A stretch of DNA of 34,455 nt, from the UHGV virus genome UHGV-0210560. One strand, written 5' to 3'. The position numbers and the translations under genes were made by a program. How positions within the stretch are numbered: the stretch's first letter is position 1; the number at the start of each line of letters is the position of its first letter. The stretch comes from a virus. The notes under the pieces were generated by a model. The model ran no database searches and was not told the DNA's origin. It saw nothing but the letters and a program-made list of their open reading frames with translations. This document shows, one piece after another, positions 1 to 34,455 of this stretch.

Positions 1-126
1 CTGATTTTTTCCCCGCGTAAGCGGGGGGTGGCTCGATCAGAGCGCAAGCGCACGCGGTTGTGGATTGAAATAATAAAGTGGCGAAAGCTGCGAAGTAGAA
101 AGCTCTATCGAAAGATAGGGCTTTTT
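1..126 (+). ncRNA. 3' part of the small RNA: solitary type I-E-like repeat, type I-C-like 3' handle, ~28-nt spacer-like segment and terminator
   Basis: TTTTCCCCGC-GTAA-GCGGGGGGTGGCTC (7-34) resembles I-E repeats (CCCCGC-N4-GCGGGG stem); GTGGATTGAAAT (60-71) is the canonical I-C repeat 3' end; CTGAT (1-5) pairs with ATCAG (36-40). Confidence 0.65.
100..126 (+). terminator. Intrinsic terminator
   Basis: AAGCTCTATC-GAAA-GATAGGGCTT stem-loop ending in a T tract. Confidence 0.75.
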
Positions 127-3977: not shown

Positions 3978-4011
3978 AAAAGAGCCCGGAAAACTCCGGG
4001 CTCTTTGCTTT
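3977..4011. terminator. Bidirectional terminator between convergent units
   Basis: AAAGAGCCCGGA-aaac-TCCGGGCTCTTT with A and T flanks. Confidence 0.8.
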
Positions 4012-4237
4012 AGTAAAGCTCAACGCCGAGCTTTTCGGCGGCAGCATAAACGACATTTTCAAAGTCTTCCCTGTCCTGCGCCGTTAAAAGCTCTTTGCTG
4101 CTTACGGCTTTCCACTCAGCGCTCATGCCTGCCAGCTCGCAAAGCTCGCCCTGCAAGTCAGGGTCGTAAAAAGGATTTGAGCAAATTTCCGCAGCGATTT
4201 CGCGGGCTCTTTTATTTATTTCCATTGTTCTTTTCAT
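4010..4237 (-). CDS. Small acidic protein (75 aa), candidate anti-CRISPR/anti-defence
   Basis: AAGGAG RBS, ATG at 4237; own strong promoter; adjacent to the HTH gene; function inferred from context only. Confidence 0.6.
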   Translation of the reverse strand: MKRTMEINKRAREIAAEICSNPFYDPDLQGELCELAGMSAEWKAVSSKELLTAQDREDFENVVYAAAEKLGVELY

Positions 4238-4245
4238 GATGTTTT

Positions 4246-4345
4246 CTCCTTTTGTCAATTTTTTGTGGATTGAATTTTGTACCCTCTTTGGAGTACATCT
4301 ATACTATACGCCTTTATTATCGTAATGTCAAGGGGTTTTTGCAAA
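4246..4345 (-). promoter_or_regulatory. Promoter/operator/leader copy 1
   Basis: Minus strand TTGACA (4331-4326), 17 bp, TATAGT (4308-4303); TACG-N10-CGTA palindrome; near-identical to 5306-5405. Confidence 0.85.
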
Positions 4346-4393
4346 TATTTTTGGATTTTTTGAAAAAAATTGCGGAAAGGGCGTCGTTAAAAA

Positions 4394-4609
4394 CTATACC
4401 ATATACTTGGCGAGTTGGTCGATAGACAGATCCAGCGCGGCGGCAAAACGCGTGGCGTTGGCAAAAGTAATATTGCCGAGGTCGGATTCGCCCTTTTCGA
4501 TTTTTTGCACCTGTCTAATGTTGATACGGGATTTTTCGGCAAGCTGTGCCTGGGTTAAGCCGAGCGCTATGCGGCGCTCGGCGAGCGGGCTGGGATTAAC
4601 AGTTCTCAT
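4394..4609 (-). CDS. XRE-family HTH regulator (Aca-like, 71 aa)
   Basis: LAERRIALGLTQAQLAEKSRINIRQVQKIEKG; AAGGAGG RBS, ATG at 4609. Confidence 0.85.
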   Translation of the reverse strand: MRTVNPSPLAERRIALGLTQAQLAEKSRINIRQVQKIEKGESDLGNITFANATRFAAALDLSIDQLAKYMV

Positions 4610-4655
4610 TACTATAACCTCCTTTAAGGTAAGCCCCGCCGGAGCGGAGCTATAA

Positions 4656-5297
4656 TTATTGCCATTCGGCGACGCTGTCGATGGTGATGCATCCGCCGAT
4701 TTGAGCGACACCGTCCTCGGAGCGGGGGAAAAACTGCCCAAAGCGGGGGTCGTACTCCTGGCGGCAGCGCACGATGCTTCCATCTCTGTGTATAACAAAC
4801 GATTTTGCAGGGGCATACTTATTGTGACCGGGAACTTTGATTTTTGCGGGCTGCTGATAGAGCCAAAGCACAGCGGCAAGGAGATTGTCGGCAGAAACGC
4901 CAAGCTTGTCAACGGCGAAATTAAACTGCATGCTGGCTTTGATTTTGTCCTCGGCGGGAGCTTCGGGCTCCTTGGCTGCTTCGGGGGCTTCAGGGGCTTC
5001 GACATCTGCGAGGAGGCTCTTAACGAGAGTTTCGGCGGCGTCTTTGAGGTCATCGCGAGTGGAGCAAACCTCGCCGGTGGCGACATCAACATAAGTTTTT
5101 GCACCCTTAAGTCTGTAGCCCTCGGCGTTGCTGATAAGCTCGCCGTTAAAGTGTGCGCTGCTGATGTTACCGGTCTTGTAGTAAGAGCACTCGAGCCCAA
5201 GCAGGGTAGCGTTGATGTAGAGACGGTCGTGGTCGCCCTTAGTCCAGCGGTTAAATCCGTTCTTTTCAAGTTTTGTAATTTGGTTGTCAGTAAGCAT
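4656..5297 (-). CDS. Two-domain hypothetical protein (213 aa), candidate anti-CRISPR/anti-defence
   Basis: AAGGAG RBS, ATG at 5297; EAPEAPEAAKEPEAPAE linker; lies directly upstream of the HTH gene in the same orientation. Confidence 0.6.
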   Translation of the reverse strand: MLTDNQITKLEKNGFNRWTKGDHDRLYINATLLGLECSYYKTGNISSAHFNGELISNAEGYRLKGAKTYVDVATGEVCSTRDDLKDAAETLVKSLLADVEAPEAPEAAKEPEAPAEDKIKASMQFNFAVDKLGVSADNLLAAVLWLYQQPAKIKVPGHNKYAPAKSFVIHRDGSIVRCRQEYDPRFGQFFPRSEDGVAQIGGCITIDSVAEWQ

Positions 5298-5305
5298 TTT
5301 TAGGT

Positions 5306-5405
5306 CTCCTTTTGTCATTTTTTTGTGGATTGAATTTTGTACCCTCTCTTAAGTACATTTATATTATACGCCTTTATTGTCGTAATGTCAAGAGGCTTTT
5401 GCAAA
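5306..5405 (-). promoter_or_regulatory. Promoter/operator/leader copy 2
   Basis: Minus strand TTGACA (5391-5386), 17 bp, TATAAT (5368-5363); palindrome TACGCCTTTATTGTCGTA at 5367-5384. Confidence 0.9.
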
Positions 5406-5430: not shown

Positions 5431-5671
5431 ATAACACACTTTATAACACACTTTTATTGCGTGCATATGAAAAAATATTTTTCCTGAGTGGATTCTTTCC
5501 CATACAAACGGCTTTGTAAAGCCATTTGTGGAGTTATGCCGTTGGAGAAAATAGTAAATTTATTTTAGAACGTGGGTTCGAGTCCCTCCTTCTCCGCCAA
5601 AAGAAAATCGCTTGTTTAAGCCAAAAACAAGCGATTTTTATTTTTGAAATAACACACTTTATAACACACTT
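5431..5671 (+). mobile_element. attP: attP: tRNA 3'-end core flanked by arm-type direct repeats
   Basis: GGGTTCGAGTCCCTCCTTCTCCGCCA (5574-5599) matches a T-arm, acceptor strand and CCA, most like tRNA-Ser; ATAACACACTTTATAACACACTT at 5431-5453 and 5649-5671; hairpin at 5604-5638; abuts the integrase stop. Confidence 0.85.
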
Positions 5672-34388: not shown

Positions 34389-34417
34389 TTGACAACCCCG
34401 CCCCGGTCTGCTATAAT
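34389..34417 (+). promoter_or_regulatory. Consensus sigma70/sigmaA promoter for a small non-coding RNA
   Basis: TTGACA (34389-34394), 17-bp spacer, TATAAT (34412-34417), just after the stop codon of the last tail gene; no ORF with a ribosome-binding site (RBS) before the terminator at 100-126. Confidence 0.85.
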
Positions 34418-34423
34418 GCAGTC

Positions 34424-34455
34424 AAGGGTTAATCCCTTTTGTCACCGCGTGAGCG
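34424..34455 (+). ncRNA. 5' part of a CRISPR-repeat-like small RNA (continues at position 1 if circular)
   Basis: 5' hairpin AAGGG-ttaat-CCCTT, then GTC-ACCGCGTG; ACCGCGTG (34444-34451) is the reverse complement of CACGCGGT (51-58). Confidence 0.65.

What the first reader, a model, noticed from the sequence alone, without database searches (positions are those of the whole stretch)
4246..5405. The repeat-like RNA is antisense to the RBS leaders of both candidate acr genes: a possible Cas-sensing switch
Seen: the arms flanking the I-C-like stem are CCTTTTGTCA (34435-34444) and TTGTGGATTGAA (58-69). Both words occur in the same order, 5 nt apart, on the + strand at 4248-4257/4263-4274 and again at 5308-5317/5323-5334. 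Those genes are on the minus strand, so their mRNA leaders (UUCAAUCCACAA-N5-UGACAAAAGG-AG...AUG) can pair over 12+10 nt with the folded RNA as a three-way junction that covers part of the Shine-Dalgarno. Inference: intact RNA blocks translation of the two small genes, and host Cas5d/Cas6e processing or Cascade loading separates the arms and de-represses them. Anti-defence proteins would then be made only in CRISPR-armed hosts. Alternatives: a CreTA-like toxin/antitoxin logic, or leaders that sponge host I-C crRNA handles.
Basis: partly seen in the sequence, partly recalled or inferred. Interest (0 to 1): 0.95.

Follow-up and report, generated by a model that had tools for sequence, protein, structure and literature searches.

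The report
CRISPR-mimic RNA gating phage counter-defence genes
A gut phage carries a small RNA gene shaped like a CRISPR repeat whose two arms are complementary to a mobile leader covering the ribosome-binding site of several candidate anti-CRISPR genes, so the RNA likely keeps those genes silent until the host's own CRISPR enzyme would cut it, an untested RNA-based way for a virus to sense immunity.

Summary
Observation confirmed. Both words occur exactly three times, and the RNA gene across the window's end-to-start junction is contiguous in related phages. The two leaders are one duplicated unit, but the same leader recurs in five other phage contigs, before two further unrelated acidic genes and behind three promoter types. 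Its two words are invariant (21 of 21 columns in 9 leaders; promoter spacer 1 of 17), with a 4-8 nt linker. They are the best predicted partners of the RNA among 73 gene starts, and pairing covers AAAAGG of the Shine-Dalgarno. All three phage lineages with the leader also have this RNA subfamily. The RNA also occurs alone, and other repeat-mimic subfamilies have no leader. The 3' arm is the overhang Cas5d reads, so pairing and Cas5d binding should exclude each other. Best reading (0.45): a Racr-like decoy that doubles as an antisense repressor released by Cas5d. Not shown: expression, compensatory changes (the one RNA variant is unmatched), Acr activity, a Cas6e role. The scan noted the decoy RNA family before on other DNA, but not the antisense leader.

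The parts
34389..34417 (+). Promoter of the small RNA, TTGACA-17-TATAAT (perfect sigma-70 consensus)
   Evidence: Sequence; the homologous promoter in L107 scores 11 of 12
34424..34438 (+). 5' hairpin of the RNA; it hides part of the anti-Shine-Dalgarno arm in the free RNA. Start site inferred from the -10 box
   Evidence: Fold; accessibility 0.0-0.4 for the first four arm bases; a hairpin of other sequence sits at the same place in L089/L092/L094/L095
34435..34444 (+). 5' arm: six bases complementary to AAAAGG of the leaders, then GTC (start of the I-C-like repeat) and A
   Evidence: G>A variant in L118 and run X5
34445..34455 (+). 5' strand of the outer stem (pairs with 45-57 across the junction)
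   Evidence: Fold; z = -6.4 for the whole RNA against 200 shuffles; junction contiguous in G001
6..34 (+). Inner hairpin resembling a type I-E repeat (resemblance recalled); absent from the short RNA variants
   Evidence: only a sub-threshold Rfam hit, CRISPR-DR28 18.8 bits, E 0.48, on the G001 copy
58..71 (+). 3' arm: single-stranded overhang of the I-C-like repeat; predicted Cas5d cut between G60 and T61, leaving an 11-nt handle; likely toehold for the leader
   Evidence: cut site by analogy with G21/U22 in PMC3973291 and the 11-nt tag in PMC5965381
72..130 (+). 3' tail: small hairpin and intrinsic terminator; first bases vary between relatives, so not a conserved guide
5363..5391 (-). Promoter B, 12 of 12 consensus
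5298..5358 (-). Leader B: 5' hairpin (5339-5356), word 1 (5323-5334), 5-nt linker, word 2 (5308-5317) running into the Shine-Dalgarno
   Evidence: best partner of the RNA among 73 gene starts, -24.6 kcal/mol
4656..5297 (-). ORF-B, 213 aa, two domains, pI 5.5; candidate counter-defence protein, function not shown
   Evidence: 39 homologues; its N-domain is fused to an AcrIC5 domain in 2 of 19 distant homologues scanned (P0018, P0026) and to an ORF-A-like domain in P0016; no family or fold match of its own
4394..4609 (-). XRE-type HTH protein, 71 aa, in the position of an Aca regulator
   Evidence: PF01381 E 1.4e-10; Aca role inferred from position only
4303..4331 (-). Promoter A, 11 of 12 consensus
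4238..4298 (-). Leader A: 5' hairpin (4279-4296), word 1 (4263-4274), 5-nt linker, word 2 (4248-4257), Shine-Dalgarno GGAG (4246-4249)
   Evidence: second-best partner among 73 gene starts, -21.5 kcal/mol; hairpin 98% paired with one two-sided change in 9 leaders
4010..4237 (-). ORF-A, 75 aa (71 from a second ATG), acidic helical protein, pI 4.5; widespread modular domain, function not shown
   Evidence: 364 relatives at E<=0.001; model pLDDT 86, no fold match above background; relatives sit behind strong promoters next to HTH or RHH genes
3979..4006 (-). Terminator closing the cassette

Best explanation
The phage carries a gene for a small RNA shaped like a type I-C CRISPR repeat whose two arms are complementary to a conserved leader in front of candidate anti-CRISPR genes; the RNA likely represses their translation by pairing over the Shine-Dalgarno, and host Cas5d binding and cleavage would release them. 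Shown: the RNA gene's anatomy, the complementarity, its conservation and the co-distribution by lineage. Predicted: the exposed 3' arm starts the pairing, the 5' hairpin opens, and a three-way junction forms with the leader's linker spanning the base of the stem. Inferred: Cas5d needs that same 3' arm single-stranded, so free Cas5d or assembling Cascade consumes the RNA (its probable first job, as a decoy) and the leaders stay open. Once the Cas pool is saturated or absent, RNA builds up and shuts translation off. That would be a feedback loop matching counter-defence output to I-C activity, on top of transcriptional control by the HTH or RHH neighbour.
For: Leaders rank 1 and 2 of 73 SD-bearing starts (-24.6, -21.5; third -15.3; median -5.6) and 0 of 100 shuffles per leader reach them. 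21 of 21 word columns are invariant in 9 leaders, against 1 of 17 in the promoter spacer and 2 of 8 between SD and ATG; linker 4-8 nt. The leader precedes four unrelated acidic proteins (pI 4.3-5.5) at three genomic sites. RNA and leaders share a contig in the window, L107 and L113. L119 (leader) is 94% identical over 10 kb to G001 (RNA), and L111 (leader) about 90% over 6 kb to L118 (RNA). Nine records of other repeat-mimic subfamilies have no such leader; their RNAs bind at only -9.5 to -16.6 and mostly leave the SD free. L112 and L119 extend the match to the whole handle. Cas5d reads the stem base and 3' overhang (PMC5965381) and trims the overhang further (PMC3973291). An in-silico cut drops binding from -21/-24 to -8.5/-12.5 per piece.
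Against: No compensatory change: the one variant inside the pairing region (G>A in L118 and X5) is matched by none of 9 leaders and weakens binding to -15/-18; X5's own leader base was not visible. G001 (complete) has the RNA and no leader, and the L118 contig has no leader matching the pattern. For L111, L112 and L119 the RNA is not shown on the same contig. The 9 leaders fall into only three promoter types, and word 2 overlaps the SD, which is constrained anyway. In a sliding scan of 1638 windows three coding-region windows scored better than the leader windows. The 5' fragment left after cleavage still covers the SD when bound (-8.5/-11), so release needs kinetics or decay. No controlled protein matches a known Acr directly. 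The host and its CRISPR type are unknown.
Confidence: 0.45

Rival explanations
1. Cas-independent off-switch: the decoy RNA represses the leaders as it accumulates after infection or in the lysogen, as a timer, and Cas proteins change this little.
For: All the pairing and conservation evidence fits equally. Intact binding of -21 to -24 kcal/mol is nearly irreversible, and the 5' fragment alone still covers the SD.
Against: The arm that must start the pairing is the Cas5d recognition element, so competition is built in wherever Cas5d is plentiful. The cassettes already carry HTH or RHH-like regulators that could serve as timers.
Confidence: 0.2
2. The match is a relic or serves another purpose: the leader arose as an inverted scrap of the RNA gene and is kept as a strong ribosome-binding site or a protein-binding site, without RNA-RNA pairing.
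For: No covariation; the G>A variant is unmatched. AAAAGG lies in 21 of 281 SD-bearing starts of related phages, leaders included. Aca proteins bind 5' UTR hairpins (10.64898/2026.07.27.740549), and these leaders have one.
Against: Likeness stops at the ends of the arms, word 1 lies outside the SD and is 11 of 11 invariant, the linker varies in length, and the neighbouring regulator changes from HTH to RHH-like to none seen while the words stay.
Confidence: 0.15
3. The leader's real partner is the host's I-C pre-crRNA: it sponges repeats and blocks processing, or it reads CRISPR transcripts directly.
For: Thirteen of the 21-22 matched bases (GTC and GTGGATTGAA) are generic I-C repeat ends (consensus recalled; numbering fits PMC3973291). 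Generic I-C-like units bind at -9.5 to -17.3.
Against: The six further bases 5' of the repeat match only this RNA subfamily. Generic units mostly leave the SD free. The leader was found only in lineages that carry this RNA.
Confidence: 0.12
4. Toxin-antitoxin logic: the RNA is an antitoxin for toxic products and keeps the cassette or the prophage in place, or arrests CRISPR-armed cells.
For: Antisense cover of an SD is the type I toxin-antitoxin mechanism (established knowledge), and the dependence runs one way: RNA without leader is seen (G001), leader in a lineage without RNA is not.
Against: The four products are soluble acidic proteins (GRAVY -0.4 to -0.5), not hydrophobic peptides. ORF-A relatives in 80 loci have plain leaders, and in runs X1 and X5 ORF-A follows ORF-B with an ordinary RBS. 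The cassette is lost in relatives (X12; G001).
Confidence: 0.08

Closest known systems
Racr, RNA anti-CRISPRs from solitary repeat units, especially RacrIC1 next to acrIC5 (Camara-Wilpert 2023, PMC10651486; passages read)
   Same: Phage-encoded small RNA with its own promoter that mimics a repeat; I-C type; acr-like genes nearby; ORF-B's N-domain is fused to AcrIC5 in some homologues.
   Different: A second hairpin is nested in the loop, and the arms are antisense to mRNA leaders. The word 'antisense' has 0 occurrences in that paper's main text. Inhibition is not tested here.
Cas-sensing Acr-Aca proteins AcrIE10 and AcrIIA1 (PMC13530269; passages read; AcrIIA1 only as cited there)
   Same: Same logic: Cas abundance lifts repression of an acr locus.
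   Different: Those are proteins acting on promoters; here the sensor would be an RNA acting on translation and consumed by a Cas ribonuclease.
Aca2/Aca1 binding of 5' UTR hairpins, and RHH-type Aca14 (10.64898/2026.07.27.740549; abstract and sections 23, 24 read)
   Same: Translational control at acr leaders; one regulator covering several operons; HTH or RHH genes in the operon; the leaders here have a conserved 5' hairpin.
   Different: There the repressor is a protein; no trans-acting RNA is described in the parts read.
Cracr / CreR / CreA crRNA-like regulators (10.1101/2024.10.29.618823; abstract and section 7 read) and vsgRNAs (10.64898/2026.06.01.729453; abstract only)
   Same: CRISPR-like small RNAs of phages or hosts that couple gene expression to Cas proteins.
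   Different: They use a spacer to guide Cas to promoter DNA, so Cas causes repression. Here the repeat arms themselves pair with mRNA and Cas would relieve repression.
Type I toxin-antitoxin systems and antisense sRNAs with a toehold (recalled)
   Same: Pairing over the Shine-Dalgarno, started at an exposed stretch.
   Different: Split target site across a bulged repeat stem; targets are acidic soluble proteins, not hydrophobic toxins.

Membership tests
Racr (RNA anti-CRISPR) | Solitary repeat-like unit on a mobile element, outside an array | tested here: met
   One handle-bearing unit with own promoter and terminator; repeat consensus recalled, no Rfam family at threshold
Racr (RNA anti-CRISPR) | Repeat matches the CRISPR type of the host | not testable with these tools
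   No host genome is held; the genome scan found no relative
Racr (RNA anti-CRISPR) | Bound or processed by Cas5d/Cas6 and inhibits immunity | not testable with these tools
   Needs experiment; geometry fits the G21/U22 cut
Cracr / CreR / CreA | Spacer with a PAM-adjacent match to a target promoter | tested here: inconclusive
   Bases after the handle differ among window, G001, L107 and L118; a 7-nt match to the cassette promoter has no TTC PAM (PAM recalled) and is lost in L107; host promoters could not be searched
acr-aca operon | Strong promoter, small acidic genes, downstream HTH/RHH gene | tested here: met
acr-aca operon | Gene homologous to a validated Acr | tested here: inconclusive
   No direct hit in Pfam, PHROGs, NCBIfam, PDB sequence or fold searches; only fusion partners carry AcrIC5
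Type I toxin-antitoxin | Antisense RNA covering the ribosome-binding site | tested here: met
   Predicted only
Type I toxin-antitoxin | Small hydrophobic toxin | tested here: not met
   75-213 aa, acidic, GRAVY -0.4 to -0.5
Cas-sensing acr regulators (AcrIIA1, AcrIE10) | Bifunctional Acr-Aca protein whose DNA binding changes on Cas binding | not tested
   The HTH is a stand-alone 71-aa protein; the proposed sensor is RNA, so this is an analogy, not membership

The most novel reading that the evidence does not exclude
Phages of one gut host group share a portable RNA sensor of CRISPR immunity: a repeat decoy that is also a riboregulator, plus a plug-in leader that puts any counter-defence gene under its control, so the host's own Cas5d switches on the proteins that disable it. 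The leader would then mark new type I-C anti-CRISPRs (ORF-A, ORF-B, the 84-aa and 187-aa proteins), and one prophage's RNA could regulate another phage's genes.
Probability: 0.3. Interest if true: 0.95.

Novelty: categorically new. Interest (0 to 1): 0.84.

Why it matters
Known control of anti-CRISPR genes uses proteins (Aca repressors, and a few Acr-Aca proteins that sense Cas). An RNA that is at once Cas bait and translational repressor would be a new kind of immune sensor in viruses and would give solitary and nested repeats a second job. It would also supply a sequence tag for finding new counter-defence genes, and a natural Cas5d-activated riboregulator for synthetic circuits. Every step can be tested with short reporter constructs.

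Tried and rejected
No host genome held; metagenome contigs could not be read beyond the fetched loci, so same-contig co-occurrence is open for L111, L112, L118, L119. Viral scans: strict leader 0 hits; ORF-B 0 confirmed loci; relaxed leader 6 hits, none in a matching cassette (L213 has a promoter-like stretch and an HTH gene but neither word 2 nor a handle-bearing RNA in its locus); 5' hairpin word 116 hits, only G001 real. Genome scan: 6 hits, none with promoter, SD and ORF. 17 of 25 metagenome hits dropped for the same lack. DUF7841-anchored loci: 80, none with a leader. Sequencing runs: no RNA holder listed, no evidence either way. Rfam: nothing at threshold. Fold searches for ORF-A (best Z 6.3) and ORF-B (best Z 5.6; Foldseek E > 0.05) are at background; ESM Atlas gave no usable hit. 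Plasmid and phage record searches for leader, RNA, ORF-A and the 84-aa protein: no match. Rejected: Cas6e as trigger; the tail as a guide against the cassette promoter; the words as a DNA operator (spacing varies 4-8 nt); activation by pairing (no SD-hiding fold in the free leader A). First hairpin count was misregistered and redone. No complex prediction was run.

Full report
Observation. The window is a complete temperate tailed-phage genome opened inside the RNA gene. The junction is real: window 34409-34455 and 1-134 are adjacent in G001, and the end and start are adjacent in L107 and L113. The RNA gene has a perfect sigma-70 promoter, a 5' hairpin, a long stem with a nested hairpin, a single-stranded I-C-like overhang, a small 3' hairpin and a terminator (fold z -6.4). 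The I-C and I-E labels rest on recalled consensus; Rfam gave nothing at threshold. The two leaders in the window are copies of one promoter-leader unit, so the case rests on relatives.

Pairing. Among 73 SD-bearing starts in the window the two leaders rank first and second (-24.6 and -21.5 kcal/mol; next -15.3; median -5.6), and 0 of 100 shuffles of each leader's upstream part reach them. In a sliding scan of 1638 windows, three antisense-to-self windows aside, three coding-region windows scored better than the leader windows, so energy alone does not single them out genome-wide. In the complex AAAAGG of AAAAGGAG is fully paired. In the free RNA the 3' arm is mostly open and the first bases of the 5' arm are hidden in the hairpin, which makes the 3' arm the likely toehold.

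Relatives. The metagenome scan gave 25 loci; 8 loci on 6 contigs are genuine and 17 lack promoter, SD and ORF. They hold 7 further leaders and one short RNA. The leader precedes ORF-B, ORF-A, an 84-aa protein and a 187-aa protein, all acidic, at three sites: beside the integrase, before the small terminase, and among replication genes. Across 9 leaders the two words are invariant in 21 of 21 columns, the promoter spacer in 1 of 17, the SD-to-ATG stretch in 2 of 8, and the linker is 4-8 nt. A further leader in run X5 keeps word 1 behind a different 7-nt linker and flank. The downstream regulator is an HTH in the window lineage and a basic 58-aa protein that looks RHH-like (by eye, no family hit) in L112 and L119.

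Co-distribution. RNA and leaders share a contig in the window, L107 and L113. G001, complete, has the RNA and no leader; it is 94% identical to L119 over 10 kb and lacks L119's cassette at a clean site. L118 (short RNA) and L111 (leader) are about 90% identical over 6 kb. So all three lineages with the leader also carry this RNA subfamily, though in two of them not on one contig that I could read. Nine records with other nested repeat mimics (four complete) have no second copy of the word except one without leader context in G009. Eighty loci of ORF-A relatives have plain leaders. The RNA therefore has a job without the leader, most likely as a decoy, and the leader looks like an add-on.

Against. 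The only change seen inside the pairing region is G>A in the 5' arm of the short RNAs (L118, X5). None of 9 leaders matches it, binding falls to -15/-18 though the SD stays covered, and X5's own leader base was cut from the table. There is no covariation evidence. The leaders fall into three promoter types only. No expression data exist for this stretch.

Mechanism. [quoted passage not shown] The same cut here falls at G60/T61 and leaves pieces that bind at -8.5 to -12.5 instead of -21 to -24. The 5' piece would still cover the SD when bound, so release depends on loss of the toehold and decay. A cut in the inner hairpin leaves the halves predicted to hold at -7.8, and short variants lack that hairpin, so Cas6e is not the trigger. 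Shown: anatomy, complementarity, conservation. Predicted: the complex. Inferred: repression, Cas5d release, feedback.

The controlled proteins. None matches a known Acr by sequence or fold. Indirect support: ORF-B's N-domain is fused to AcrIC5 in 2 of 19 distant homologues scanned (25 proteins, six of them ORF-A relatives), and in MT835524 a homologue lies next to a solitary I-E-like unit with its own promoter. Of 79 longer ORF-A relatives scanned (of 150 listed), none carried a known Acr domain and two an HTH; 34 neighbour proteins gave HTH and RHH hits but no Acr.

Literature. Seven searches found Racrs, Cracr/CreR/CreA, vsgRNAs, Aca binding to leader hairpins, and the protein sensors AcrIE10 and AcrIIA1, but no repeat-mimic RNA acting antisense on acr leaders. 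The library lacks most subscription papers, and I read abstracts, passages or single sections as listed under Closest known systems; supplements were not read and bioRxiv supplements are closed, so listed Racr candidates may include this RNA.

Verdict. A real, conserved, mobile leader antisense to a CRISPR-repeat mimic. Functional pairing about 0.65, Cas5d-dependent release about 0.45, full novel case 0.3. Interest 0.84.

Noticed in passing
L118:9875-10085 (-); run X5 record 24: Short form of the RNA: the arms flank a 4-5 bp stem only, and in L118 a longer multi-hairpin 3' domain follows the handle, keeping total length near 130 nt before the terminator.
   Followed up: partly
L087, L088, L090, L091, L096, L089, L092, L094, L095: Other nested repeat-mimic RNAs (I-C-like outside, I-E-like inside, often a II-C-like word; labels recalled); L087 has two nested I-E-like units.
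   Followed up: partly
L344:3236-3263 (-), record MT835524: Solitary I-E-like unit with its own promoter, convergent on a gene with ORF-B's N-domain.
   Followed up: no
L216 (G006:C1:5520-5686): Two tandem solitary I-C-like units, each with its own promoter.
   Followed up: no
window 4632-4651; L111:9712; L112; L119:10611: A GC hairpin between cassette genes recurs in all leader cassettes and resembles the I-E-like stem; terminator or processing site unknown.
   Followed up: no
window 5279-4298 leaders, hairpin 4279-4296 and 5339-5356: The leaders' 5' hairpin is kept with one two-sided change; in L111/L112/L119 it resembles a stretch inside the long RNA (window 28-48). Possible Aca RNA site.
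   Followed up: partly
L113:10398-10782: ORF-B is broken by an internal deletion with frameshift while its leader stays intact.
   Followed up: no
window 5555-5600: Looks like the 3' end of a tRNA gene beside the integrase (probable attachment site; by eye, ARAGORN finds no whole gene); G001 has a different one.
   Followed up: no
L111:10205-11382 (-): Further small unknown genes upstream of the 84-aa gene, on the same strand; possible counter-defence cluster.
   Followed up: no
window 4805-4929 (-): ORF-B coding region gives the best non-self cofold score with the RNA (-26.6), by an irregular pairing that unfolds the RNA; probably chance.
   Followed up: partly
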